This document shows, piece by piece, positions 1 through 38,667 of a stretch of 38,667 bases of DNA. The position numbers and the translations under genes were made by a program. The notes below the pieces were generated by a model. It did no database searches. It was not told the DNA's origin and saw nothing but the letters and a program-made list of their open reading frames with translations. This DNA comes from a virus (lineage: Duplodnaviria > Caudoviricetes), in the IMG/VR virus record IMGVR_UViG_3300043473_000126, positions 1 through 38,667 of that record. One strand, 5' to 3'. Position 1 is the stretch's first letter; each line of letters begins with the position of its first letter.

Positions 1-610
1 CTCGGGGTCGTTCATCACGTTCGCTCGTGCGATCCTCAAGGTCAACGGCGTCGCAGTACCGAACAATCAAGCCGAGGTTCGTGTACTTGCTGCCATTCCC
101 GAAAGGGCGTGGTATGACGGCCCTTACGACCCCGATGAGCCGCAAGTACCAGCTTGCTATGCTCTGGATTCGGGCGAGCCGCACCCCGAAGCAGCAGACC
201 CCCAGTCTGATACGTGCATGGGCTGCCCTAAGAACAAGTGGGGCACGGCTCCGCCTCGTCCTGGTTCGACTATCCCTGGCAAGGGCAAGGCATGCCGTGA
301 GGGGGCCCGCATCATCGTCACGCCGGCTGGGATCCCGCTGAAGTCCAGCCCCCTATACACCGCGAAAGTCCCTGTCACGTCGCTCAATGCGGTTCAGACG
401 TACATGGACCGTTGCGCGAACAGCGGCCGCATGATGGGCGAGTTCATCGGCGTCCTGAGCGTGGTCGAGGACAAGCGCTCGTTCTTCAAGGTCGGCTTGG
501 ACATCAAGGAGCATACGGCAGATCTGGACCCGGTGCTCATGATGAACAAGATGGATCAGGCCATGCAGCTCGCGCTGCAGCCGTACCCGAACCTGAACAG
601 CGATAACTAG
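1..610 (+). CDS. 3' part of a Cys-containing phage replication protein (putative SSB/Zn-binding); continues from 38579 across the window join
   Basis: Frame from nt 2 is open to 610 (SGSFITFARAILKVNG...PACY...QSDTCMGCPKNKWGT...GKGKACREGARIIVTP); four-Cys pattern seen in phage replication-module proteins; high-GC3 codons. Confidence 0.7.
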   Translation, partial: SGSFITFARAILKVNGVAVPNNQAEVRVLAAIPERAWYDGPYDPDEPQVPACYALDSGEPHPEAADPQSDTCMGCPKNKWGTAPPRPGSTIPGKGKACREGARIIVTPAGIPLKSSPLYTAKVPVTSLNAVQTYMDRCANSGRMMGEFIGVLSVVEDKRSFFKVGLDIKEHTADLDPVLMMNKMDQAMQLALQPYPNLNSDN

Positions 611-983: not shown

Positions 984-1655
984 ATGAAGAAGTTCCGAAT
1001 CCTTTCTCTTGCTCTGGCCGCAGCCGCGGCAGTGCTTGCGGTCCCCGCCGCGAACGCTGTCACGCTTGGGTTCCAGGACGAGTTCAGCGGCGGTACCAAC
1101 TGCGTGAACCTCATCAGTGGTTGCTCGTTCTTGCAAGCGGAGCAGACGGCCACGGGCGTCCACTTCGAGCTGCAGGGCACGATGGCACCGGGTGAGTTCA
1201 TCACGGGGCTGTACGGGAACTACACCGGCGCACCGCTCACCATCAGCAACGTCGGCGGTACGGGGGCAGCAGCCTACCAGGGCTTCAGCTTCTCGAACGA
1301 CTCGTTCAAGGCGGACGGCGACGGGTTCTTCGACTGGAAGATCGATCTGGCCACAGCAGCGGCCAATCGCTTCAACCTGTTCGACACGCTCTCGTGGGAC
1401 TTCGTCGGCGCCTCGTTGAGCTCGTTCAACAGCCGCAGCGTCAACGGTCCGATCGACAAGAACGGCTTCCTGTTCGCCACACACGGTCAAGGACTCGTGC
1501 TCGGCGGCTCGGGCTGGTTCAAGGGTGACCTCACCCCGACGAGCACCCCCTTCGACGTGACGCCGGTTCCGGAACCCGAGACGTACGCGCTCTTTCTCGC
1601 CGGTCTCGGCGCGATGGGGATCGTGATCCGTCGCCGCAAGAACCAAGCGGCGTAA
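984..1655 (+). CDS. PEP-CTERM sorting-domain surface protein
   Basis: Signal peptide MKKFRILSLALAAAAAVLAVPAANA; G/S/T/F/D-rich body; C-terminal VPEPETYALFLAGLGAMGIVIRRRK (PEP motif + TM helix + basic tail); AGGAG RBS. Confidence 0.93.
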   Translation: MKKFRILSLALAAAAAVLAVPAANAVTLGFQDEFSGGTNCVNLISGCSFLQAEQTATGVHFELQGTMAPGEFITGLYGNYTGAPLTISNVGGTGAAAYQGFSFSNDSFKADGDGFFDWKIDLATAAANRFNLFDTLSWDFVGASLSSFNSRSVNGPIDKNGFLFATHGQGLVLGGSGWFKGDLTPTSTPFDVTPVPEPETYALFLAGLGAMGIVIRRRKNQAA

Positions 1656-4694: not shown

Positions 4695-6034
4695 GAGGTG
4701 TTAAGTGGCTAAGCGAGAACATCGGTTCCGCCCTCTTCTTGAAGCCTGGTTCGGGCAAGACGTCGGTAGTTCTGGCCGCATTCCTCCGGGTTTCGGAGAT
4801 GATCCTACGGCGAAAGACCCGGATGCTTGTGTTGGCGCCCCTGAAGCCCGCCGAGTCTACCTGGATGGACGAGCCGCGAAAATGGAAGCAGTTCGCGCAC
4901 TTGAAAGTCGGTCTGGCTCGTGGACCACTACGCGAGCAGATCTTAAAGGACCTATCCTACGACGTAGTCGTGACCAACTACGATTCCCTGGAGTGGATAG
5001 CCCCGATCCTGGAACAGAAGAATGACTTTGACGTTCTAGCATGCGATGAGCTGACTAGGCTCAAGCATATCCAGTCAAAGCGCTTCAAGCTACTGAAACC
5101 ACTTCTCAAGACGTTCACGTACCGCTGGGGCGCAACGGGCACCCCCGCCGCCAATGGTCTGCTGGACCTCTTTGGCCAAGTAATGGTACTCGACCTGGGT
5201 CAACGTCTAGGCCGTTACATCACCCACTTCAGGATGACGTACTTCTACCAGAAGCCCTGGGATCAGTACCGGTACTATATCTCTGACAACATGGCAGACA
5301 AGCTCGTTGAGAAGATCAGCGACATCTGCATGTACCTAGCCAATGACGAGGAGCTGGAATTGCCCCCGCTCATTGACGTCATCCGCCGTACCGACCTCCC
5401 GCCGAAGGTTCGCCGTCAGTACTACGAGCTGGAAACTGAGTTCATCCTCAAACTGTCTACCGGCCTGGTAACCGCGTCTAATGCGGGGGTGCTGACATCG
5501 AAGCTACGCCAGTTCACTGGTGGCGCGGTGTACAACGCCACGGCTGATCGGACCTGGTCAGACGTGCATGACGCCAAGATTGAGCTCCTGAAGGACCTCG
5601 TCGAGGAGCTTGCAGGCGAGCCTCTTATGGTATCCTATCAGTTCGAGCATGAGTATGAGCGACTGATGAAGGAGTACCCCCAGGCGCTGTGGATCAAAGG
5701 CGGCATGCCTAAGGGCCTGTTACAGTCCACAATTGAACAGTGGAATACGGGGGCGATACCGGTCATGCTGGTACAGCCTTCGGCGGCAGCGCTGGGTTTG
5801 AATTTGCAGTTCGGTGGCAACAACCTAGCTTGGTATTCCCTGACCTATAACCTGGAAGAGTACATCCAGATGATCGCACGCCTGCTCCGTAAGGGTCAGA
5901 CGAAGAGTGTCATGAACTACATCCTAACGGTGAGTGACACAATTGACCAAGTGGTTGCGAAGGCCCTGGTCGCCAAAGACCTCACGCAGAACAAAGTGTT
6001 TGAAGCGCTGCAGGGGTTAAAAACCGAGGAGTAA
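4439..6034 (+). CDS. SNF2-family (SF2) DNA helicase; start uncertain
   Basis: PGSGKT Walker A, DELT Walker B, ATGTP motif III, GLNLQ, QMIARLLRKGQ; nearest upstream ATG with RBS (GGAG 4427-4430) is 4439. Confidence 0.88.
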   Translation: MYPTEGGEAEGVARSDAPSPERADGVGGTQTAGGESNEVPGAYPRDAAVDEFQSARRGELFAVHGSTSVLEGFGPPEWIPVNYQVRGVKWLSENIGSALFLKPGSGKTSVVLAAFLRVSEMILRRKTRMLVLAPLKPAESTWMDEPRKWKQFAHLKVGLARGPLREQILKDLSYDVVVTNYDSLEWIAPILEQKNDFDVLACDELTRLKHIQSKRFKLLKPLLKTFTYRWGATGTPAANGLLDLFGQVMVLDLGQRLGRYITHFRMTYFYQKPWDQYRYYISDNMADKLVEKISDICMYLANDEELELPPLIDVIRRTDLPPKVRRQYYELETEFILKLSTGLVTASNAGVLTSKLRQFTGGAVYNATADRTWSDVHDAKIELLKDLVEELAGEPLMVSYQFEHEYERLMKEYPQALWIKGGMPKGLLQSTIEQWNTGAIPVMLVQPSAAALGLNLQFGGNNLAWYSLTYNLEEYIQMIARLLRKGQTKSVMNYILTVSDTIDQVVAKALVAKDLTQNKVFEALQGLKTEE

Positions 6035-6079
6035 CAATTCGTAAAAAGATTTCCATTGGGAGTTCCTTCGTCGTATAAT
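6021..6079 (+). promoter_or_regulatory. phage promoter family, copy 1
   Basis: AAACCGAGGAGTAACAATTCGTAAAAAGAT-TTCCAT-17nt-TATAAT(6074-6079); near-identical blocks at 31796 and 37495. Confidence 0.8.
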
Positions 6080-6136
6080 GTATTTTGCTGCCTGCGATTC
6101 CGCGGCAGCTGGCACAGGACCAACAGGAGATTTGGA

Positions 6137-6784
6137 ATGGATTTCAAAGGTTTGAGCATGTCCCAACTGATCGAGGCGTACAACGTCCTCGCCACGGAAA
6201 AGGGCGTGCCCCACGAGACCGAGTTCAAGAACCTCGCCGCAGCTCGGGCGGCAATCACTTCACTGGAGAGCAAGATGACAGACGAAACCACCACGGCAGT
6301 CGATGCCGATCCCGCGGCTGCGTCCGCTGATGGCGCCGAGAACACCGGTGCCGACGTGAGCACCACGGACTCGAAGTACTCGACCGTCGGCAAGCGTGGT
6401 CCGACGCAAGGCGTTGGCGAATTCGCCAAGCAGCTCCTCGCCGGGGGCATGCCCACCGGCGACGTCCTGACGAAGGTCCGCGAACAGTTCCCGACGGCCA
6501 AGACGAGCGCCTCGTGCATCGCCTACTACAAGGCCGCGCTGAAGAACCCGAACCTCGGCAAGCGCAAGGGCGGCGTCTCGACCGATCCCGCCGCGCTTCG
6601 CGCCAAGGCCGCGGAACTCATGGCTGCCGCGCAGGCCGCCGAAGCCGCCAACGCCGAGGCTGCCGTGAAGGCCGCCGAGGAAGCGGTTGCCAAGGCCGAG
6701 GTCGCCAAGAAGGCGGCGGAAGCAGCGCTCGCGGCGCAAGCTGCGCTCAAGGAACAGCAGGCAGCGCAAGCTCCGGCAGCCTAA
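6137..6784 (+). CDS. hypothetical protein, paralog C of the G(Q/E)F...KT..C(I/V)A(W/Y)YK domain family, with Ala-rich C-terminal helix
   Basis: AGGAGA RBS 6125-6130; GVGEFAKQLL...VREQFPTAKTSASCIAYYKAALK aligns with ORFs 29888 and 30345; very high GC3. Confidence 0.85.
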   Translation: MDFKGLSMSQLIEAYNVLATEKGVPHETEFKNLAAARAAITSLESKMTDETTTAVDADPAAASADGAENTGADVSTTDSKYSTVGKRGPTQGVGEFAKQLLAGGMPTGDVLTKVREQFPTAKTSASCIAYYKAALKNPNLGKRKGGVSTDPAALRAKAAELMAAAQAAEAANAEAAVKAAEEAVAKAEVAKKAAEAALAAQAALKEQQAAQAPAA

Positions 6785-6789
6785 CGCTG

Positions 6790-6816
6790 AGGGGGCGATC
6801 GTGAGGTCGCCCCCTT
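6790..6816 (+). terminator. strong hairpin (weak terminator or mRNA-stabilising stem)
   Basis: AGGGGGCGATC-GTGA-GGTCGCCCCCT with only a very short U tail. Confidence 0.5.
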
Positions 6817-6826
6817 AAGGAGCAAC

Positions 6827-7102
6827 ATGAACAAGATGCGCTATCTCGAGCTGATCAACCCAGCTATCGAGATTGTGGTAAAGAAGCACGAGGATTACGG
6901 CAATGACCGTCTCGGGCTCAAAAGCTATTTTCCGTTCGGACTCAAATCTCATATCCAGATGCTGCACATCAAAACGCAGCGCCTGGTCTCGTTGGCGCAG
7001 ACTGGTCAGGAACCGAACTTCGAGTCCGTCAAGGACACGCTGCTCGACCAGATCAACTACGCCGTCTTTCTGTTGGACGCTATCGACAAAGGCGATGTCT
7101 GA
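6827..7102 (+). CDS. nucleotide-modification-associated domain protein (Nmad1/DUF1599-like, all-alpha NTP-PPase-like)
   Basis: KKHEDYG...IKTQRL...ESVKDTLLDQINYA signature; AAGGAG RBS. Confidence 0.75.
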   Translation: MNKMRYLELINPAIEIVVKKHEDYGNDRLGLKSYFPFGLKSHIQMLHIKTQRLVSLAQTGQEPNFESVKDTLLDQINYAVFLLDAIDKGDV

Positions 7103-7932
7103 TGAGCAACTATGAACTGGATTACCTCGACCTGGTGGAAAAGGCCATCACCAAGGGTCAGTACCGCGAGTGCCGTAATGGCGAGACGCGGGCCCTCTTT
7201 GGCGAGACCCTCAGGATCGAAGAGCTCAAGTGGGATCAGTTCCCCCTCTTGACGCAACGCCGCATGTTCTACGGTGGTGTCCTCGGCGAGTTGGCGGCCT
7301 TTTTGAGGGGGGCCACCAAGCTCGGTGAGTTCCATGCGCAGGGCTGCCACTACTGGAACGAGAACGCCAAGGCATGGCCCCCTAATCAAGATAAAGGGCT
7401 AACCTTGCCGGAGATGTCGATCGGCCAGGTCTATGGCGCGCAATGGGTGAACTGGAAGCAAACCGGTTACAACCAGATCGCGGCGATCATGGACGAGCTG
7501 TATAGCAACCCACATGGTCGCAGACACGTCCTCACCTCGTTCGATCCTCTGGCCGAGGCTTGTCTGCCGCCGTGTCATCTTATGGCACAGTTCTTCGTCA
7601 ACGCAGATGGGCGTCTCGACTGCATCGTTTACATGCGCAGCGTGGACCTTATCCTTGGCCTGCCCAGCGACGTCATACTCTACGCAGCGCTCCTCACCTT
7701 GATCGCGAACTACGTAGCCATGCGTCCGGGGGTGCTCACCTTCTACATGGGCGATACCCACATCTACGAGAACCACGTGAAGATCTTCTACGATCAACAC
7801 AAGGACCGCCCAATGCACCGCGCGCCGGGCTACTCGCTTGCTGCGAACGAGGTCTTTGACTTCGTGCCGAAGCACCTCACCATCAACGACTACGAGCACT
7901 CGGCAGTCATTCAGTACCCATTCAATGTCTAA
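7102..7932 (+). CDS. thymidylate synthase homolog with dCMP-type specificity residue (putative dCMP methyl/hydroxymethyltransferase)
   Basis: FPLLT, GELAAFL, GRRH, LPPCH (catalytic Cys), YMRSVDLILGLPSD (Asp at E. coli N177 position), GDTHIYENH. Confidence 0.9.
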   Translation: MSNYELDYLDLVEKAITKGQYRECRNGETRALFGETLRIEELKWDQFPLLTQRRMFYGGVLGELAAFLRGATKLGEFHAQGCHYWNENAKAWPPNQDKGLTLPEMSIGQVYGAQWVNWKQTGYNQIAAIMDELYSNPHGRRHVLTSFDPLAEACLPPCHLMAQFFVNADGRLDCIVYMRSVDLILGLPSDVILYAALLTLIANYVAMRPGVLTFYMGDTHIYENHVKIFYDQHKDRPMHRAPGYSLAANEVFDFVPKHLTINDYEHSAVIQYPFNV

Positions 7933-8317
7933 GTCAATGTTCAAGAAGGTGGCTGACTTCCACACCGAGATCCTCGGCGTGGATGAACCGGAGATCCCGA
8001 CCTTCAACCAGCCGGAATGGATCATCGAACGCACGCGGTTCATGATGGAAGAGCTGCAGGAATTCACCTCTGCCGCGATGCAGAAGGACATGGTCGAGGC
8101 CGCCGATGGCCTAGCTGACATCGTGTACGTAGCGCTAGGCACTGCGTTCATGATGGGGCTGCCCTTCGAGAAGATCTTCGACCACGTCCACAACTGCAAC
8201 ATGCGGAAGCAGCGCGGTACCACGAGCAGGGGCAATGCGATCGACGCCATCAAGCCTGCCGGATGGGTACCCCCTAACCAGGGTATCGCAAAGATTCTGG
8301 AGGACAGTCTTGATTGA
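7925..8317 (+). CDS. MazG-like (DR2231/PRA-PH type) dNTP pyrophosphohydrolase
   Basis: VADFH...MEELQEF...EAADGLADIVYVALG...VHNCNMRK...KPAGWVPP. Confidence 0.85.
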   Translation: MSKSMFKKVADFHTEILGVDEPEIPTFNQPEWIIERTRFMMEELQEFTSAAMQKDMVEAADGLADIVYVALGTAFMMGLPFEKIFDHVHNCNMRKQRGTTSRGNAIDAIKPAGWVPPNQGIAKILEDSLD

Positions 8318-8771
8318 ACGACCCACTATCCAGCAGGTCATGCTGGGGGTCTGTGTCATCCTGGCGACGCGGGCGACCTGTAAGAAGTTACAAGTCGGCT
8401 GCGTCCTGGTTGACAAGTTTCAACGCATACTAGGAACTGGTTACAATGGCGTGGCCCGCGACCAACCTCACTGCATTGACACGGCTTGCCCTGGTGCCCT
8501 CGCTCCTAAGGGGGCCGACCTCTGCGAAGCCATCCACGCCGAGCAGAACGCGCTCCTCGTCTGCCGCAACCCAGACGACGTCTACGTCTGCTATACCACG
8601 CATGCTCCGTGCCTCCGTTGCACAAAGCTTCTTCTTAACACTGGGTGCGAGTCCATCCAATATCTTTACGGAGAAAACGGTGAACCAGCAGCCGAACGAA
8701 TCTGGCGCGCAGCCGGAAGAGATTGGTTCCGACACGACGTCAGTGGAATGGCGGGTAGTACCGGGCTATGA
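8310..8771 (+). CDS. dCMP deaminase-family Zn-dependent deaminase
   Basis: RATC..LQVGCVLV, GTGYNG, HAEQNA, PCLRC; TTG start after GGAGG 8299-8303. Confidence 0.9.
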   Translation: MIERPTIQQVMLGVCVILATRATCKKLQVGCVLVDKFQRILGTGYNGVARDQPHCIDTACPGALAPKGADLCEAIHAEQNALLVCRNPDDVYVCYTTHAPCLRCTKLLLNTGCESIQYLYGENGEPAAERIWRAAGRDWFRHDVSGMAGSTGL

Positions 8772-9219
8772 AGAGTTCGAAGTCAACAGAGCAGGCGGTA
8801 TCCGCGAGAATGGCGGACCTGCTCGTGTCAGAGTGGCAGGTTCCGGACATATTTATGTCCTCAGAACCAAATCAAGACCTGCGTTGCTTGTCCACCGCGG
8901 AGTACTTCTTGCATTCGAGGGGCCCTGCCCTCCGGGACATGTTTGTCGGCATCTTGACGACAATCCCGCCAACAACCAGTTCGACAACCTGAAGTGGGGC
9001 ACTAAGAAAGAGAACGCCGAAGACCGCGTCAGGAATGCCCCCACAAAGCCGGGGTGGACTGACGAGCGCCGGCACCTAGAACGGATCAAACAATTGGAGG
9101 AGGAGAACCTTGCGCTAAGAACCCAGAACATGCGCTTCAAGGCGACGATCATGAACTTCGTCGCCGATCGGTCAACCCGCGTTACTCAATCTCTTTTGAA
9201 GGAGCTAGGACTCTCATGA
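8680..9219 (+). CDS. NUMOD4-like/HNH homing-type endonuclease with C-terminal coiled coil
   Basis: EWRVVPGYEEFEVN..G.IR; VHRGVLLAFEG...CRHLDDNPANNQFDNLKWGTKKEN; GTG start after GGAG. Confidence 0.8.
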   Translation: MNQQPNESGAQPEEIGSDTTSVEWRVVPGYEEFEVNRAGGIRENGGPARVRVAGSGHIYVLRTKSRPALLVHRGVLLAFEGPCPPGHVCRHLDDNPANNQFDNLKWGTKKENAEDRVRNAPTKPGWTDERRHLERIKQLEEENLALRTQNMRFKATIMNFVADRSTRVTQSLLKELGLS

Positions 9220-9753: not shown

Positions 9754-11871
9754 TTAACCGACCCGCATCCAGAGAACGGTGTCGACGTTGGTTGCGTTTG
9801 TCTCGCGACCTAGCATTCGGTAAGTGCCGACGTTGAAGGACGTGTTGGTCGCATTGCCGAAGATCGTAATGGTGACTGCCCCGCCCAGAGCAACGTCCGA
9901 GAACGGGTTCATGGTCGGCATACCAACGCCTCGACCGAGCAAGATGCCGCCAACTGGGAAGGTGATGCCGCCGCTCCCAAATGCTCCGGACTCCGTACAG
10001 ATCGCCACACGGAAGTCAGTAACCCCTTCGCGGACGAAGATAGAGTCATTGCCAGTGGGGACCGTGACCTTCGGTTGTCCGTTTACTATGATCAGCGTAC
10101 TGTGGTTGCTCAGCGAACCAACACGGACGTCAGTATTGGCGTTCGCCTGTAGGAAGGCCGACGCACCGCTCGTGTGGCGAAGTCGAGCGACCGCCGCAGT
10201 TCCATCGGTAACGTCAATCGGATAGGCCGGCGCAGCTCCGGTGTTTATGCCGAGGTAGCCTGCGTTGGTAATCCACACCCGCGTTGTGGACGCATCGATG
10301 AACTGCCAGCCCTGATAGTCACCGCCACCCGCGATGAACGAGCGATCCCCGAACTTGATCATGCCCTGATTAGGCGCGCCTGCCACATCAAGGTGAAGCG
10401 CAGGTACCCCGCTCGTCGCGCTCTGCACGTCGAGCTTAAACCCAGGAGCTGAGTTGCCAATGCCGACCTGCTGGCCCGTGGTCACGGTAACGACTGGACT
10501 ATTCAGGTGACTGCTGACGCCGATCCGGTATGAGGAGTCCGCAGCGCGAATCCCAGTACTCCAGTCCCAAGTACCTTGGTTGACATAGTGGGTGAACGCA
10601 TCACTACCAGTCTGCGTGCCCCCGTTGCTGAGCTCCAGCTTGGCACGCGAGTTGACTGTATTCGAGAAATTGCTGATGAAGATGGCTACATCGCCACCTG
10701 GAGCCGAATAGCCAGCGGACATGTTGCCGCCTGAGTTGATCGAACTAGCAGTGGTCAGGACGCCCGCATTGCTGAGGGACATGCGGTTCACGCCAGTGGT
10801 GTTCCACTGATAGTCGCTGGCTCCAAAGGTGAACTTGTCCCATGCGGGGGACTGTCTATCAAAGGAACGAAGCTCAGACTCGGCCGGATTCAGGCGCACC
10901 CACTCCAGGCCTACATCATTGGCTGCTTGGGCCTGAACTCGGAACTGAACGCCAGCCGGCGGGATGCAGTTGATGCCGAGGTTGCCTGCTGGCGTCAGCC
11001 GCATCTGCTCAGTGCCGCCGCCAGCAGAGAAGCGGACTGAGCCGCTTGCGTTCCGGGCACTGATCGCAATACCGCCTACACCATCGGCCAGCATCAGGGC
11101 TGCGCTCGGTCCAGCAAGAGGGTAGCCAGTATACCCAGGACCGGTCATCAAAAACTGCGAAGAGATGCTGCCAGAGATCGTAGCAACGAATCCCGTTGCC
11201 GCAGCTACTCCCAGATTTGGATTGAGCGAGGTGAATCCAGTAACGCTGTCGGCAGACCCTGCCACGGACAGGAGACCGCCCGGCGCGAACTGCATCGCCG
11301 TGACGCCGGCACCCAGAGTCCAGCCCAGCGTGTTCGGCGCTGGGTGCCACATTCCTGTATCGGGGTCAGAGGTGAACGAGTATGCCGGCAGAGCAGCAGT
11401 TCCGTCAGGTACTAGTATCTGGCCCGCGGCATTGCCAGTGAAGCTGCCATCAACAGTCAGGTTTCCGATGATGGCAGTGTTCCCACCAACAGCAAGATCG
11501 CCTGTTACACTTGCATCACCAGAGGCTTGGAAGTCACCGGTAACTGCCAAGTCAGCGTTGATGCCTACAGTAGATGAGGACCAGGACTGCCGTAGCACCC
11601 CCGCTATCGACATCCCCACAGTATTGGGTGCGAAGCGGTATAGCCCCGTGGAGGGGGCCAACGCGAAGGCGAGACCAGGCAGTGCAACCGTCCCATCAAC
11701 GACCAGGAAAGGCAACAGCGGACCAAGGAGGCCATCCCTGGTGATCACGTTGTTCAGCTGGACGGCAATGTCCGACATCGTGTCATTGGCCCAGATGGAC
11801 TCAATGACGGTACCGCTGACGACTGGGTTACCAGACGGAAGGGTATAGTTACCACCTGAATCGCGCGGCAT
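9754..11871 (-). CDS. tail fibre protein
   Basis: Podovirus-type N-terminus MPRDSGGNYTLPSGNPVVSGTVIES; duplicated DGT.ALP...F...P.TG module; repeated G.(L/V)GI..AP...(L/I)DV units. Confidence 0.85.
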   Translation of the reverse strand: MPRDSGGNYTLPSGNPVVSGTVIESIWANDTMSDIAVQLNNVITRDGLLGPLLPFLVVDGTVALPGLAFALAPSTGLYRFAPNTVGMSIAGVLRQSWSSSTVGINADLAVTGDFQASGDASVTGDLAVGGNTAIIGNLTVDGSFTGNAAGQILVPDGTAALPAYSFTSDPDTGMWHPAPNTLGWTLGAGVTAMQFAPGGLLSVAGSADSVTGFTSLNPNLGVAAATGFVATISGSISSQFLMTGPGYTGYPLAGPSAALMLADGVGGIAISARNASGSVRFSAGGGTEQMRLTPAGNLGINCIPPAGVQFRVQAQAANDVGLEWVRLNPAESELRSFDRQSPAWDKFTFGASDYQWNTTGVNRMSLSNAGVLTTASSINSGGNMSAGYSAPGGDVAIFISNFSNTVNSRAKLELSNGGTQTGSDAFTHYVNQGTWDWSTGIRAADSSYRIGVSSHLNSPVVTVTTGQQVGIGNSAPGFKLDVQSATSGVPALHLDVAGAPNQGMIKFGDRSFIAGGGDYQGWQFIDASTTRVWITNAGYLGINTGAAPAYPIDVTDGTAAVARLRHTSGASAFLQANANTDVRVGSLSNHSTLIIVNGQPKVTVPTGNDSIFVREGVTDFRVAICTESGAFGSGGITFPVGGILLGRGVGMPTMNPFSDVALGGAVTITIFGNATNTSFNVGTYRMLGRETNATNVDTVLWMRVG

Positions 11872-21947: not shown

Positions 21948-22928
21948 TTACTCGACCATCACGCCCTGGAACTGCAACCCGCACGAGGTGAGGTTGCCGG
22001 CCCACGCCAGGATCTGCACGGCGGCGTCCTGGTTCACCGAGTAACGCTGGCCCGGCGAAAGCGGGACCATGTTACGATCGCGGTGGGGGCGATACTTCAG
22101 GTACTTCGTGTTCAGGAAGTACGCCGTCGAGACCGGGTCAAAGCCGCCGATGCCGCCGTCGAGGCAGACGTCTGCGTCCATGAACTTGATCGTGACGAAG
22201 CCGAGCTTGGCCGTCTGCGAGTCCGTGAACCGTTGGATGGCCTGGAGCGAGGCCATGTAGAAGCCCCAGTAGTTGTTGTCGACCATGATCAGGTCGGGGC
22301 GATCGTTGCCGCGGACGCACTTTGCCCAGAGCCGGTTGAAGTAGCTCTGGATGTTCGTGGCCGAAGTGGGGGCACCACCGTCCGTGCTGGCGTCGAACGT
22401 CTGGTTACGCCAGAACGTCCAGGTGACGCGGTCGATGCCGCCGGGCGAGCCGGAGGTCGGAACCGCGATGACCTGCTTCTGCAGCCCGTCGATCTGCTTG
22501 CCGCCCGCGGCCGTGCCGTCCGAGTACAGGCCCTGCGCGATCAGGTTGGCCATGGAGGCCTCGCCGACGTTGACGCGGGCTTCGAGCAGGTCGATGATCT
22601 GTTCCCGGCCGCTGTTCTGCAGCTGGTCGAGACCGGAGATCGTGACGGGGCAAGCGGCCTGCTTGATGTCGTACTGGGCGGCGCTGATCACGTCCTGTGC
22701 CGCGATGGGCAACAGGTCGTAACCCGCGTACCAGCCGGCGTTGCCGTTGGCCTGGAACGAGAGCTCTTCCATGATCACGTTGCCGCCGGAGAACGGCTTG
22801 ATGTTGCCGCGTTCCTTCAGCCTCATGAGCAAGGCGTTGTTCTTCGTGACGTTGTCCGCGATCGTACCCGTGCGGGATTGGATCGTGGTTGCGATGATGT
22901 CGCTCACCGCGGCGTTTGCGAATGCCAT
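21948..22928 (-). CDS. major capsid protein
   Basis: DIIATTIQSRTG.IADNVTKNNALL.RL, LYSDGT..GGKQIDGL, GGIDR.TW.FWRNQ; 326 aa; strong codon bias; follows the scaffold; AGGAG RBS. Confidence 0.9.
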   Translation of the reverse strand: MAFANAAVSDIIATTIQSRTGTIADNVTKNNALLMRLKERGNIKPFSGGNVIMEELSFQANGNAGWYAGYDLLPIAAQDVISAAQYDIKQAACPVTISGLDQLQNSGREQIIDLLEARVNVGEASMANLIAQGLYSDGTAAGGKQIDGLQKQVIAVPTSGSPGGIDRVTWTFWRNQTFDASTDGGAPTSATNIQSYFNRLWAKCVRGNDRPDLIMVDNNYWGFYMASLQAIQRFTDSQTAKLGFVTIKFMDADVCLDGGIGGFDPVSTAYFLNTKYLKYRPHRDRNMVPLSPGQRYSVNQDAAVQILAWAGNLTSCGLQFQGVMVE

Positions 22929-30344: not shown

Positions 30345-30743
30345 ATGAGCAAGAAGTACCAGGAACAACAAGCCCAGAACGAACTGCCGGAAGGGGGCGA
30401 TCAGGCGACCCAGAGCGATACGGGGGCCGATACCTCGGTCGAGCAGAGCACGGAGAGCGAAGTGCAAAGCTCGGAAGCCCCGGACGAAGTGCCAAGCACG
30501 GAGACCAAGGCGATCGGCATCGGCCAGTTCGTGCGGCATCTCTTGATGCACAGCACGAAGAGCAACTCGGAAATCCTCGAGCTGGTTCTCAAGACCTTCG
30601 AGGGCAGCAAGACGACGCCGGCGTGCATTGCGTGGTACAAGACGGACCTCCGGAAGAAGGGGCTGCTTGATGGCCTGAACCAGCGCGGCAAGAACAAGAC
30701 CGTGGCGTTCAGTGCCGAGGAGCTCGAGGCGCTCTGCAAGTAA
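30345..30743 (+). CDS. paralog B: acidic disordered N-terminus + shared helical domain
   Basis: GIGQFVRHLLMHSTKSNSEILELVLKTFEGSKTTPACIAWYKTDLRKKG...VAFSAEELEALCK; GC-rich codons. Confidence 0.88.
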   Translation: MSKKYQEQQAQNELPEGGDQATQSDTGADTSVEQSTESEVQSSEAPDEVPSTETKAIGIGQFVRHLLMHSTKSNSEILELVLKTFEGSKTTPACIAWYKTDLRKKGLLDGLNQRGKNKTVAFSAEELEALCK

Positions 30744-31049: not shown

Positions 31050-31274
31050 ATGATTGATAAGCTACCGCAGAAGACATGGCAGGGCAAAGTCCCCGCAATG
31101 TGCGAGATGTCTGGTGAGGAGATCACAGATCGATTCATCGATGGATGCAATCGGGCAGGTCAATGGTGTATCATGTCCCCTACGGGCCACATGCAATATG
31201 GACGTGGTCTGGGCGTCGGTAAGGGCCAAGAGTACACGAAAGTGCACGGAAAGTGGGTGAAGACACGTGGATAA
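31050..31274 (+). CDS. conserved small phage protein
   Basis: FIDG...GQWCIM...GRGLGVGKGQEY motif; GAGGA RBS. Confidence 0.75.
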   Translation: MIDKLPQKTWQGKVPAMCEMSGEEITDRFIDGCNRAGQWCIMSPTGHMQYGRGLGVGKGQEYTKVHGKWVKTRG

Positions 31275-31446
31275 CCAAGAACAGTCGGCCCCCCTCAACG
31301 CGATGCAGAGCATCAAAGACGAAGGGTACAGAGCGCAAGCTCAAGGCAAGGTCATGAGCCTGGACAACCCGTACCGGCAGAGCGACCCAGCGCATTGGGC
31401 TTGGAGAAGCGGTTTTATCGAAGCATGGAGAGATGCAAATGGCTGA
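31267..31446 (+). CDS. Rmf/CrpP-fold-like small protein
   Basis: 59-aa GTG-start ORF with EGYRAQAQG...DNPY...WAWRSGFIEAW; overlaps both neighbours; not in the ORF track. Confidence 0.6.
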   Translation: MDNQEQSAPLNAMQSIKDEGYRAQAQGKVMSLDNPYRQSDPAHWAWRSGFIEAWRDANG

Positions 31447-31804
31447 TCACCCCCGCAAGCAACCGAACTGGATCGTCGGTAAGAACGGATGGTGGCAAGC
31501 TACGTCTGGTGAAGTCAAAGAGATGTTCGGTCTGAAGAAGACTGATCCCTGGCCAGATGCAGGGATGCCAAAGCGCGTAGTGCAAGGCTTCATTTGCTGG
31601 ATCGATCCGATCGCCCCCGTTCAGATCAACAAGAATGGTCGTGAATACAGGCCGTTTAGGATCAGGGCGCGGATGTTCTGCGGTATCTGCGGGGATGAGC
31701 AGCCGATCGGCAGGCAACAGCAGCATGCTCAGGTGCATATCGAAGAGGCCAAGCAGGAAGCCGCTCAGCACCGCTACGATACCACCCCCGCAAGTGAGGA
31801 GTAA
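31439..31804 (+). CDS. hypothetical protein with C2H2-like Zn motif
   Basis: CGIC...IGRQQQHAQVH; GGAGA RBS. Confidence 0.7.
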   Translation: MADHPRKQPNWIVGKNGWWQATSGEVKEMFGLKKTDPWPDAGMPKRVVQGFICWIDPIAPVQINKNGREYRPFRIRARMFCGICGDEQPIGRQQQHAQVHIEEAKQEAAQHRYDTTPASEE

Positions 31805-31850
31805 CGAGACGTAAAAAGATTTCCCTTGGAGCTCCTTGATGTGTTATAAT
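31796..31850 (+). promoter_or_regulatory. phage promoter family, copy 2
   Basis: GAGGAGTAACGAGACGTAAAAAGAT-TTCCCT-18nt-TATAAT(31845-31850). Confidence 0.8.
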
Positions 31851-31857
31851 ATATCTT

Positions 31858-33473: not shown

Positions 33474-33640
33474 GCTCCAAAGACCCGAACAGGATCATCG
33501 AGCGCATCGAGAAGCTCCTGGCAATGGCGCGCAGTGCTATTGACGAAGCCGAGGCAATCGCTGATTGTCCAGATGAGCCACTGCGCATCCAGCGAGAAGC
33601 TAGAAAGCTGATGGACAAGTTCTACGAGGATCAGCTATGA
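33470..33640 (+). CDS. DUF2786-like helical protein
   Basis: IIERIEKLLAMARS...EAE...ARKLMDK. Confidence 0.55.
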   Translation: MSSKDPNRIIERIEKLLAMARSAIDEAEAIADCPDEPLRIQREARKLMDKFYEDQL

Positions 33641-34191
33641 AACCTGACTTCAAGGACTTGTACGAGTTCCTAGAGTGTGCGCCGAGACCTTGGTACATCC
33701 TGGTGGTTGGCGCGCCTGGCAGTGGTAAGAGCACGTTGTGCAAGGCGCTGCTAGGGACGTACACCAAGCTGCACCGGTTCAGCACGGACGACAAGCTCGA
33801 GCTCATTGCCCTTCGCAGATACGGCACGAAGACACTCAAGGAATCGCAGTTCGCAAAGGTCCCCTTCGGCGAGCTAATCCGGGAAATGAAGTTCAACATC
33901 TGGCAGATGGCGAACATGGGGGAGTCCATTCTGATCGACCAGACCTCCATGAGCGTCGAGTCTAGGGTTAGGAAGTTGGCGTGGTCACCCCCGCGATTCA
34001 CAAAGATCTGCATTGACTTGCATGGTCTTACGGCTGATCAATGCTTCAGGCGCGTCGAGCAACGAGTTCGAGACAAGGGCCGGTTCATTCCTAAGCATGT
34101 TATTGAAGACATGCTCAAGAAGTACGAACAGCCCAGCGTAGACGAAGGTTTCAACCTGATCTACAGACTCGATCAATCTGTAGGTGTGTAA
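33637..34191 (+). CDS. P-loop kinase (AAA_33 / polynucleotide-kinase-like)
   Basis: LVVGAPGSGKST, STDD, ILIDQT, R..R...IP..VI..M...YE.P...EGF. Confidence 0.85.
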   Translation: MKPDFKDLYEFLECAPRPWYILVVGAPGSGKSTLCKALLGTYTKLHRFSTDDKLELIALRRYGTKTLKESQFAKVPFGELIREMKFNIWQMANMGESILIDQTSMSVESRVRKLAWSPPRFTKICIDLHGLTADQCFRRVEQRVRDKGRFIPKHVIEDMLKKYEQPSVDEGFNLIYRLDQSVGV

Positions 34192-37293: not shown

Positions 37294-37496
37294 ACCTGAT
37301 GACAGACGAGGTGGTGCTTCAGCAGATGCAGGGTTACGGCGAGACCTGCTGGCGGGCCACCCCCTCGAACTGGGAGCCAGGTGACCCCGTCGGATGGGGG
37401 CCGACTCCGGTGCATGCCCGGGAGCATCTACTGGACCAAATCCAGGAGCGCATCGACTACATCATGTGGGCCAACGGCAACGGTACCATCCAGTAA
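37290..37496 (+). CDS. hypothetical protein
   Basis: ATGA coupling; WEPGDPVGWGPTP..A...LL. Confidence 0.65.
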   Translation: MNLMTDEVVLQQMQGYGETCWRATPSNWEPGDPVGWGPTPVHAREHLLDQIQERIDYIMWANGNGTIQ

Positions 37497-37553
37497 ACCG
37501 AGGAGTAACAAAACGTAATAAGATTTCCCTAGGAACGCCTTTTGCGTTATAAT
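37495..37553 (+). promoter_or_regulatory. phage promoter family, copy 3
   Basis: AAACCGAGGAGTAACAAAACGTAATAAGAT-TTCCCT-17nt-TATAAT(37548-37553); first 17 nt identical to copy 1. Confidence 0.82.
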
Positions 37554-37598
37554 AGAATTTATGCCACCAGTAGTTCAACGGAACAAGGAACAAAGTAC

Positions 37599-38409: not shown

Positions 38410-38589
38410 ATGCAAGAAGCGATGATCGAGTTGCTGGCGGAGTTCTACAGAAACACGGGACTCCGGCCCATGTGTGCAGATGATGCACTTCACCTGGAGG
38501 AGCTAACAGAGCTGCAACGGAAGTGGCTCTTGAACTACGGTCAAATGTGGGACATCATGAAAGAAATGGAAGTTCAAAATGGGAACTGA
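38410..38589 (+). CDS. hypothetical protein
   Basis: MQEAMIELLAEFY...LTELQRKWLLNY..MWD; tight spacing with neighbours. Confidence 0.6.
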   Translation: MQEAMIELLAEFYRNTGLRPMCADDALHLEELTELQRKWLLNYGQMWDIMKEMEVQNGN

Positions 38590-38667
38590 AGTTGAAAGCG
38601 CAGAGGTCATTCGACAACGGATCGCTGAACAGCTCGAGCGTCAGCAAAAGGCCGCACAGGCCCTTCG
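38579..38667 (+). CDS. 5' part of the SSB-like gene (joins nt 1-610)
   Basis: MGTEVESAEVIRQRIAEQLERQQKAAQAL + CG; nt 1 (C) completes CGC and the frame continues into SGSFITF. Confidence 0.7.
   Translation, partial: MGTEVESAEVIRQRIAEQLERQQKAAQAL

What the first reader, a model, noticed from the sequence alone, without database searches (positions are those of the whole stretch)
6827..8771. Cytosine-modification cassette: ThyA homolog with the Asn-to-Asp specificity switch
Seen: YMRSVDLILGLPSD aligns with E. coli ThyA YQRSCDVFLGLPFN, putting Asp (codon 7669-7671) at N177; the catalytic PPCH is intact. Established: Asn here selects dUMP, Asp selects dCMP (T4 dCMP hydroxymethylase D179; the N177D mutation turns ThyA into a dCMP methylase). 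The gene is coupled to Nmad1/DUF1599, a MazG-like pyrophosphatase (could remove dCTP or dUTP) and a deaminase. Xanthomonas phage Xp12 replaces C with 5mC and induces a 5-methylcytosine-nucleotide deaminase. Inference: this podovirus makes 5m-dCMP (or 5hm-dCMP) for its DNA and/or makes dTMP by methylating then deaminating. I see no glycosyltransferase, which favours plain 5mC.
Basis: partly seen in the sequence, partly recalled or inferred. Interest (0 to 1): 0.82.

Follow-up and report, generated by a model that had tools for sequence, protein, structure and literature searches.

The report
Soil phage 5-methylcytosine synthesis cassette
This soil phage's only thymidylate-synthase-like gene carries the active-site residues of enzymes that methylate dCMP rather than dUMP and sits in the same gene set as in phage Xp12, so the phage likely builds its DNA with 5-methylcytosine to escape restriction enzymes, a known strategy seen here in a large uncultured phage group.

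Summary
Observation confirmed. The ThyA-family gene (7102-7932) has Asp190 (codon 7669-7671) at E. coli Asn177, as do 120 of 120 closest homologues listed. It keeps Leu143 and Asp169, which by published rules point to a methyl product, not hydroxymethyl or hydroxyl. Its neighbours Nmad1 and PRA-PH/MazG match the two halves of one Xp12 protein (41.5%, 39%) that precedes Xp12's dCMP methylase and deaminase. Among 79 related viral loci, 42 of 46 Asp-type but 0 of 33 Asn-type have a deaminase nearby. The genome looks complete and shows no second synthase, glycosyltransferase, DHFR or clear dNMP kinase. Best reading (0.72): dCMP to 5-methyl-dCMP for DNA, with thymine nucleotides made by deaminating part of it. 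This pathway is published (Xp12; MetaGPA 2021, 2024), and this scan has noted it on other genomes. What differs: the synthase is only 25% like Xp12's, keeps ThyA's His147 and groups with cultured Kafunavirus-like phages, for which my searches found no DNA-chemistry test. No enzyme or DNA of this clade was assayed here. New member of a known kind; interest 0.33.

The parts
6021..6086 (+). One of three copies of a ~66-nt repeat holding a sigma-70-like promoter match (6050-6079); likely heads the operon
   Evidence: function inferred
6137..6784 (+). Conserved Ala-rich protein of unknown function directly upstream; weak homologue of Xp12 QNN97219, which lies between Xp12's helicase and its cassette
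   Evidence: (47.8% over 46 aa)
6827..7102 (+). Nmad1/DUF1599, 91 aa, mainly three-helix protein; homologous to the C-terminal half of Xp12 QNN97215; function unknown
   Evidence: (41.5%, E 7e-14)
7102..7932 (+). ThyA-fold enzyme, 276 aa, predicted dCMP 5-methyltransferase: Leu155 (7564-7566, =L143), Cys158 (7573-7575), His159 (=H147), Asp182 (7645-7647, =D169), Asp190 (=N177D)
7669..7671 (+). GAC codon, Asp190, at the Asn177 specificity position
7925..8317 (+). PRA-PH/MazG-like all-alpha NTP pyrophosphohydrolase (closest solved structure DR2231); homologous to the N-terminal half of Xp12 QNN97215; predicted dCTPase
   Evidence: (39%, E 7e-21); substrate inferred
8310..8771 (+). dCMP-deaminase-family zinc enzyme (HAE 76-78, PCxxC 100-104 invariant in 17 of 17 aligned); predicted to deaminate 5-methyl-dC nucleotides
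   Evidence: selectivity inferred
8743..9219 (+). HNH endonuclease overlapping the deaminase 3' end; accessory, absent from many relatives

Best explanation
The cassette is a predicted pre-replicative 5-methylcytosine pathway: the ThyA-fold enzyme, which has Asp at the Asn177 position, likely methylates dCMP to 5-methyl-dCMP, which would be phosphorylated and built into phage DNA in place of cytosine. Steps: (1) the PRA-PH/MazG enzyme would hydrolyse dCTP to dCMP, keeping plain C out of DNA and feeding the methylase (inferred from family and context); (2) the synthase would transfer a methyl from methylene-tetrahydrofolate to dCMP (residues shown; activity inferred from assayed Asp177/Leu143 homologues); dihydrofolate would be recycled by the host, as no phage DHFR was found; (3) a kinase, not identified, makes 5m-dCTP; (4) the deaminase would turn part of the 5-methyl-dC pool into dTMP/dTTP, replacing an ordinary thymidylate synthase (inferred); (5) the phage family-A polymerase incorporates 5m-dCTP, and the DNA would resist most type II restriction enzymes. 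Nmad1 is an unassigned helper.
For: Shown: Asp190, Leu155, Asp182, Cys158 and deoxyribose-type Arg140/Ser180; each of D190, L155, D182, C158 is invariant in 120 of 120 listed homologues. Published rules: N177D selects dCMP, L143 goes with methyl and L143D/E with hydroxymethyl, D169N marks hydroxylases (PMC13326640); 5 of 7 tested Asp177 synthases linked to deaminases made 5mdCMP, and deaminase mSCD-B5 converts 5mdCTP to dTTP (bioRxiv 2024.12.05.627091); TS + PRA-PH + deaminase co-occur on cytosine-modified contigs (PMC8670742). Same four modules as Xp12, whose DNA is 100% 5mC. Co-occurrence in 79 viral loci: deaminase within 4 kb in 42 of 46 Asp loci (3 of the 4 misses end at a contig edge) against 0 of 33 Asn loci; MazG 41 of 46 against 0 of 33. 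Only one TS and no glycosyltransferase, carbamoyltransferase or dioxygenase found in an apparently complete genome. Phage S144, with an L143/Y147/D169/D177 synthase 32% identical to this one, is cut only by A/T-site enzymes (PMC7432712). Weak support: 0 of 26 Asp loci against 10 of 21 Asn loci strongly avoid a 5mC-blocked 4-mer site.
Against: No assay of this clade is known to me. The synthase is only 25% identical to Xp12's and differs at positions 143 and 147 (Xp12 Asn162/Pro166); it keeps His147, which MetaGPA found to differ between modified and unmodified contigs, and its best sequence and fold matches are ordinary thymidylate synthases; it passes TIGR03284's cut-off. 2 of the 7 tested Asp177 enzymes gave no 5mdCMP; of 194 soluble deaminases only 56 were active and 34 selective, and selectivity is polyphyletic, so it cannot be read from the tree. 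No DHFR and no clear dNMP kinase: the P-loop kinase at 33637-34191 is closest to polynucleotide kinase. The site-avoidance signal is confounded by GC and kinship, weakens against GC-matched (p 0.03) and helicase-related controls (p 0.08), also appears for 5mC-cut sites (p 0.001), and is absent for 6-mers.
Confidence: 0.72

Rival explanations
1. Thymine-only route: the synthase methylates dCMP, but the deaminase converts essentially all 5-methyl-dC nucleotide to dTMP/dTTP, so the DNA carries ordinary or only partly methylated cytosine.
For: No dedicated dNMP kinase identified. Earlier scan notes report the same Asp-type TS + deaminase pair in CPR bacteria and read it as a thymine route (unchecked by me). 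17 of 277 deaminases on unmodified MetaGPA contigs also had a TS nearby, and about half of those TS were not predicted to make dT.
Against: A tightly linked NTP pyrophosphatase (41 of 46) is what full replacement needs; mSCD-B5 acts on the triphosphate, which implies a 5mdCTP pool open to the polymerase; S144 and Xp12-like phages with such cassettes have restriction-resistant DNA.
Confidence: 0.12
2. Ordinary dTMP supply: dCMP deaminase makes dUMP, the PRA-PH enzyme is a DR2231-like dUTPase, and the synthase still methylates dUMP despite the Asp.
For: The protein is closest to canonical ThyA in sequence, fold and tree, keeps His147, and the pyrophosphatase's nearest solved relative is DR2231 (its dUTPase activity is recalled, not from a call). 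This is how such genes are usually annotated.
Against: Asn-to-Asp at 177 switches ThyA to dCMP in mutagenesis (cited); Asp is fixed in 120 of 120 homologues; Asn-type viral synthases never had the deaminase or MazG nearby (0 of 33).
Confidence: 0.07
3. The product is 5-hydroxymethyl- or 5-hydroxy-dCMP, or 5mC is further modified by an unrecognised phage enzyme.
For: The 143 rule is described as a correlation; Xp12's methylase itself has Asn there; several small ORFs and Nmad1 are unassigned.
Against: Leu155 and Asp182 are invariant, unlike T4, Xp15 and AXL3 (Asp143/Thr147) and the D169N hydroxylases; no glycosyl-, carbamoyl- or methyltransferase or dioxygenase hit among the ORFs scanned.
Confidence: 0.06

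Closest known systems
Xanthomonas phage Xp12 dCMP 5-methyltransferase module (MT664984: QNN97215 PRA-PH+Nmad1 fusion, QNN97214 TS homologue, QNN97213 deaminase, QNN97212 DHFR); also PaMx74 and AXL1
   Same: Asp at 177, Asp at 169; PRA-PH, Nmad1, TS and deaminase clustered downstream of polymerase, helicase and a homologous Ala-rich gene.
   Different: TS only 25% identical, Leu143/His147 instead of Asn/Pro; PRA-PH and Nmad1 are separate genes flanking the TS; deaminase only 30% identical; no DHFR; 38.7-kb podovirus-type genome instead of a 63.8-kb Mesyanzhinovviridae phage.
MetaGPA Asp177-TS + PRA-PH + 5mC-selective deaminase (mSCD) cassettes (PMC8670742; bioRxiv 2024.12.05.627091)
   Same: Meets their in-silico definition: PF00383 deaminase with a PF00303 synthase carrying Asp at 177, with PRA-PH and DNA polymerase A nearby.
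   Different: Whether any tested enzyme belongs to this clade could not be seen: the eLife supplements held show no protein sequences in the part readable and the preprint's supplements were not available.
Kafunavirus-like podoviruses (Edwardsiella KF-1, Dickeya Amaethon) and Salmonella phage S144
   Same: KF-1 and Amaethon have L143/H147/D169/D177 synthases (34%, 39% identical) followed by pyrophosphatase and deaminase genes; KF-1 groups with this clade (SH-aLRT 99). S144 has L143/Y147/D177 and restriction-resistant DNA.
   Different: Their deaminases are fused to a dGTP_diPhyd_N domain and no Nmad1 was detected (KF-1, Amaethon); annotated as ordinary thymidylate synthases; base chemistry not identified in what I read.
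T4 gp42 dCMP hydroxymethylase and RB69/DLP3 5hodCMP synthases
   Same: ThyA fold, catalytic Cys, Asp at 177.
   Different: They have acidic 143 (T4 Asp145, Thr149 at 147), D169N in the hydroxylases, and glycosyltransferases; this enzyme has Leu143, His147, Asp169 and 24% identity to gp42.

Membership tests
Xp12-type dCMP 5-methyltransferase / 5mC replacement pathway | ThyA-family enzyme with intact catalytic Cys and Asp at E. coli position 177 | tested here: met
   Cys158, Asp190
Xp12-type dCMP 5-methyltransferase / 5mC replacement pathway | Non-acidic residue at 143 and Asp at 169 (methyl, not hydroxymethyl or hydroxyl) | tested here: met
   Leu155, Asp182, each 120 of 120 (rules)
Xp12-type dCMP 5-methyltransferase / 5mC replacement pathway | Linked dCMP-family deaminase and PRA-PH pyrophosphatase; no second, Asn-type synthase | tested here: met
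Xp12-type dCMP 5-methyltransferase / 5mC replacement pathway | Synthase in the same sequence clade as Xp12's | tested here: not met
   25% identity; Xp12 lies on a long branch outside the clade in both quick trees; long-branch placement is unsure and no AU test was run
Xp12-type dCMP 5-methyltransferase / 5mC replacement pathway | Phage-encoded DHFR beside the cassette | tested here: not met
   No hit with Xp12 DHFR in the window or in any Asp locus; none in Pfam scans
Xp12-type dCMP 5-methyltransferase / 5mC replacement pathway | Kinase able to phosphorylate 5-methyl-dCMP | tested here: inconclusive
   Only a PNK-like P-loop kinase, 33637-34191
Xp12-type dCMP 5-methyltransferase / 5mC replacement pathway | dCMP methylation activity and 5mC in virion DNA | not testable with these tools
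   Only assembled contigs, no raw reads; site-avoidance test is indirect
5mC-selective deaminases (mSCD) | PF00383 deaminase in cis with an Asp177 synthase | tested here: met
5mC-selective deaminases (mSCD) | Preference for 5mdCTP over dCTP/dCMP | not testable with these tools
   Trait is polyphyletic with no published diagnostic residues in the passages read
Canonical ThyA (dUMP methylase) | Asn at 177 | tested here: not met
   Asp190
T4-type dCMP hydroxymethylase | Asp/Glu at 143 | tested here: not met
   Leu155
5-hydroxy-dCMP synthase (RB69/DLP3) | D169N | tested here: not met
   Asp182
MazG-like all-alpha NTP pyrophosphatase (for Nmad1) | MazG fold | tested here: inconclusive
   Best Foldseek row 2p06 (E 0.43, prob 0.94, TM 0.65), iMazG and dCTPase rows lower; VIA best Z 7.5 on unrelated helices; no profile match to the neighbouring MazG

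The most novel reading that the evidence does not exclude
This clade is a near-minimal natural conversion of ThyA into a dCMP methylase (Asn177Asp with Leu143 and His147 kept), running full 5mC replacement plus thymine synthesis with no DHFR or recognisable dNMP kinase of its own; it would extend 5mC genomes to a large uncultured podovirus group and to cultured Kafunavirus-like phages, on a virion chassis that in Stenotrophomonas phage BUCT555 carries PurZ/MazZ/DatZ-like genes instead, with Nmad1 or the PNK-like kinase supplying a still unknown step.
Probability: 0.4. Interest if true: 0.5.

Novelty: new member of a known kind. Interest (0 to 1): 0.33.

Why it matters
If true, it widens the set of fully 5mC genomes beyond the Xp12-like siphoviruses to a widespread podovirus-type group (over 100 distinct homologues listed), shows that genes annotated 'thymidylate synthase' in cultured phages such as KF-1 and Amaethon are probably mis-annotated, and offers a ThyA-proximal dCMP methylase for studying how specificity switches and a further source of 5mC-selective deaminases for sequencing tools. 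The chemistry and logic are already published, so the gain is in range and in easy test cases, not in a new mechanism.

Tried and rejected
Independent origin of this methylase from ThyA: not shown. Two quick trees (72 of 88 rows after removing near-duplicates, the careful search did not finish, 39 rows) put the clade nearer canonical ThyA than Xp12 or T4, but all Asp types except L066 fall on one side of a branch (support 84), long branches meet, and no AU test was run. Direct read evidence of modification: no raw reads or RNA holder listed, only contigs. Close relatives without the cassette as a control: none; all helicase relatives at 44% identity or more with room carry it. 6-mer palindrome avoidance: no Asp/Asn difference (medians 0.86 and 0.90, 21 loci each). 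The group labelled 'Xp12-like' was mixed (L103 and L136 are Asp143-type, L150 is Leu/His-type) and is not used. MetaGPA supplements gave no protein motifs (the zip is cut). tblastn with a 76-aa motif stretch found nothing. Nmad1 fold search gave no significant match. Bacterial genomes: 2 loci only, one Leu/Thr/Asp type and one Asn type. No paper on DNA chemistry of KF-1-like phages, or naming this clade, in searches and passages; the library lacks most subscription papers. Look-ups of earlier findings by place and by sequence were empty. No complex prediction was run.

Full report
Observation. The window is a 38.7-kb tailed-phage genome with a family-A polymerase, SNF2 helicase, VirE-type primase, ligase and a podovirus-type virion module. 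It looks complete and circularly permuted: a 230-aa protein of relatives L015 and L018 matches window 38579-38665 with residues 1-29 and window 2-595 with residues 32-229. Four overlapping or abutting genes lie at 6827-8771: Nmad1/DUF1599, a thymidylate-synthase homologue, a PRA-PH/MazG-like pyrophosphatase and a dCMP-deaminase-family protein. Aligned with E. coli ThyA, T4 gp42 and the Xp12 enzyme taken from their records, codon 7669-7671 (Asp190) sits on Asn177. Contigs from four soil or sediment runs cover the codon without a difference (one may be the source), and 120 of the 120 homologues listed (of 1109 found) have the Asp.

Reading the active site. PMC13326640 (sections 24 and 28 read) gives three diagnostic positions: Asp at 177 for dCMP; Leu at 143 for a methyl product against Asp/Glu for hydroxymethyl; Asn at 169 for 5-hydroxy-dCMP synthases. 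The window enzyme has Asp190, Leu155 and Asp182, plus Cys158, His159, Arg140 and Ser180; the last two are the deoxyribose-type residues named in PMC5175136 (passages). That predicts a dCMP 5-methyltransferase. The AlphaFold model (pLDDT 96) is a standard ThyA fold, closest to ordinary synthases (TM about 0.9), so fold does not decide substrate.

Context. Xp12's 257-aa 'hydrolase' just upstream of its dCMP methylase is a fusion whose N-terminal half matches the window's PRA-PH protein (39%, E 7e-21) and whose C-terminal half matches Nmad1 (41.5%, E 7e-14). So the window has the same four modules as Xp12, whose DNA is 100% 5mC (PMC7653180, parts 2-3 read), without Xp12's DHFR. In the 79 viral loci (the best 80 of 134 confirmed stretches), 46 are Asp-type and 33 Asn-type; within 4 kb, the deaminase is present in 42 of 46 against 0 of 33, the pyrophosphatase in 41 of 46 against 0 of 33, Nmad1 in 32 of 46 against 0 of 33. 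Three of the four Asp loci lacking a deaminase end at a contig edge; L066 truly lacks it. These loci are largely one clade, so the counts show conservation, not many independent events, and detection used the window's and Xp12's own genes as queries. No second synthase, glycosyltransferase, carbamoyltransferase, dioxygenase or DHFR was found among the ORFs scanned (48, 16, 10; not all 260 mechanical ORFs). The only kinase, 33637-34191, is closest to polynucleotide kinase, so the 5mdCMP kinase step is open.

What is in print. PMC8670742 (section 11, passages, part of the supplements) showed that Asp177 synthases mark cytosine-modified contigs and co-occur with PRA-PH and dCMP deaminase; it also found position 147 to differ between modified and unmodified contigs, whereas this clade keeps His. 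bioRxiv 2024.12.05.627091 (parts 1-2 of 11 and passages; supplements not seen) showed that 5 of 7 such synthases make 5mdCMP in E. coli, that mSCD-B5 deaminates 5mdCTP but hardly dCTP, and proposed that these phages make dTTP this way; of 194 soluble candidates 56 were active and 34 selective. This scan has also noted it on other phage and CPR genomes.

Where this clade stands. The synthase is 30% identical to E. coli ThyA, 25% to Xp12's and 24% to T4 gp42. Its nearest cultured relatives with the same Leu/His/Asp/Asp pattern are KF-1 (34%) and Amaethon (39%), each followed by pyrophosphatase and deaminase genes; KF-1 joins the clade at SH-aLRT 99. My searches (passages 86) found no test of their DNA. 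S144, a lead from an earlier scan note, has Leu143/Tyr147/Asp177, 32% identity, and DNA cut only by SspI and PacI of nine enzymes (PMC7432712, passages): support for the class, not for this clade. The trees do not show a separate origin from Xp12.

Indirect genomic test. A 5mC genome should not need to avoid sites that 5mC blocks. Using the Xp12 digestion table (PMC7653180 supplement), eight blocked and three still-cut 4-mers were scored on loci of 12 kb or more, near-duplicates, two giant-virus loci and seven reference loci left out. No blocked site falls below half of expectation in 26 Asp loci including the window, against 10 of 21 Asn loci (Fisher p 7e-5); 4 of 26 Asp loci do avoid GATC, GTAC or TCGA, which are still cut. 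Against this: I saw the pattern before fixing the classes; Asn loci are lower in GC; with GC-matched controls it is 5 of 23 (Mann-Whitney p 0.03) and with helicase relatives lacking a synthase 3 of 11 (p 0.08); cut sites are also less depleted in Asp loci on average (p 0.001); 6-mers show no difference; kinship is not corrected. I count it as weak support.

Nmad1. A confident three-helix model (pLDDT 89) gives only non-significant matches, led by MazG-like proteins; the wide search shows common helical hairpins. Its fusion to PRA-PH in Xp12 ties it to the pyrophosphatase step, but it also occurs beside ThyX and dUTPase in archaeal viruses (passage) and in crAss-like phages, so it is not a marker of 5mC.

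Verdict. Real, and most likely a 5mC-replacement cassette with thymine made by deamination (0.72). Rivals: thymine-only route (0.12), ordinary dTMP supply (0.07), another C5 product (0.06). Shown here: residues, gene order, conservation, homology to Xp12's module. Inferred: every activity and the DNA chemistry. It works like the Xp12 system; its synthase is not in Xp12's sequence clade. New member of a known kind, interest 0.33.

Noticed in passing
L090:13954-15819 (Stenotrophomonas phage BUCT555) against window 6827-8771 and 21948-22928: The closest cultured match for the major capsid protein (64.8%) has no TS cassette; near the end of its replication arm it has adenylosuccinate-synthetase-like, MazG-like and HD/YfbR-like genes, the gene set I recall for Z-base (2-aminoadenine) genomes. 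The same virion module seems to go with different base-modification cassettes.
   Followed up: partly
L096-L168 (helicase relatives): This SNF2 helicase family sits beside several kinds of TS homologue (motifs like the window's, Asp143-type, and types with other residues at 177), suggesting a replication module that often hosts pyrimidine-modifying cassettes.
   Followed up: partly
window 6021-6086, 31791-31856, 37495-37560: Three copies of a ~66-nt repeat with a sigma-70-like promoter match; likely the phage's strong promoters.
   Followed up: partly
window 6791-6814: GC-rich 10-pair hairpin directly before the Nmad1 ribosome-binding site, read by eye; not listed by the terminator scan. May tune or stabilise the cassette transcript.
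   Followed up: no
window 984-1655: 223-aa protein with a C-terminal PEP-CTERM sorting motif (E 5.6e-9), unusual in a phage; hints at a host with an exosortase.
   Followed up: no
window 31267-31446: 59-aa ORF with a weak ribosome modulation factor match (E 9.8e-5, below cut-off).
   Followed up: no
L066:1849-2784: An Asp177 synthase nested among canonical Asn enzymes in both trees, with no deaminase or MazG detected nearby: a possible separate Asn-to-Asp change.
   Followed up: partly
L029:5075-5935 and 10001-10828: Two copies of the synthase about 5 kb apart; duplication or assembly artefact.
   Followed up: no
window, whole: ATGCAT occurs once against 8.6 expected; Xp12 has none against 3.1. 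Unexplained.
   Followed up: no
L010:5344-5952 and L091:19048-19647: KF-1 and Amaethon deaminases are fused to a dATP/dGTP diphosphohydrolase N-terminal domain (PF18909), which may stand in for Nmad1.
   Followed up: no
window 6137-6784 and 30345-30743: Two paralogous proteins of unknown function; Xp12 has several weak homologues.
   Followed up: no
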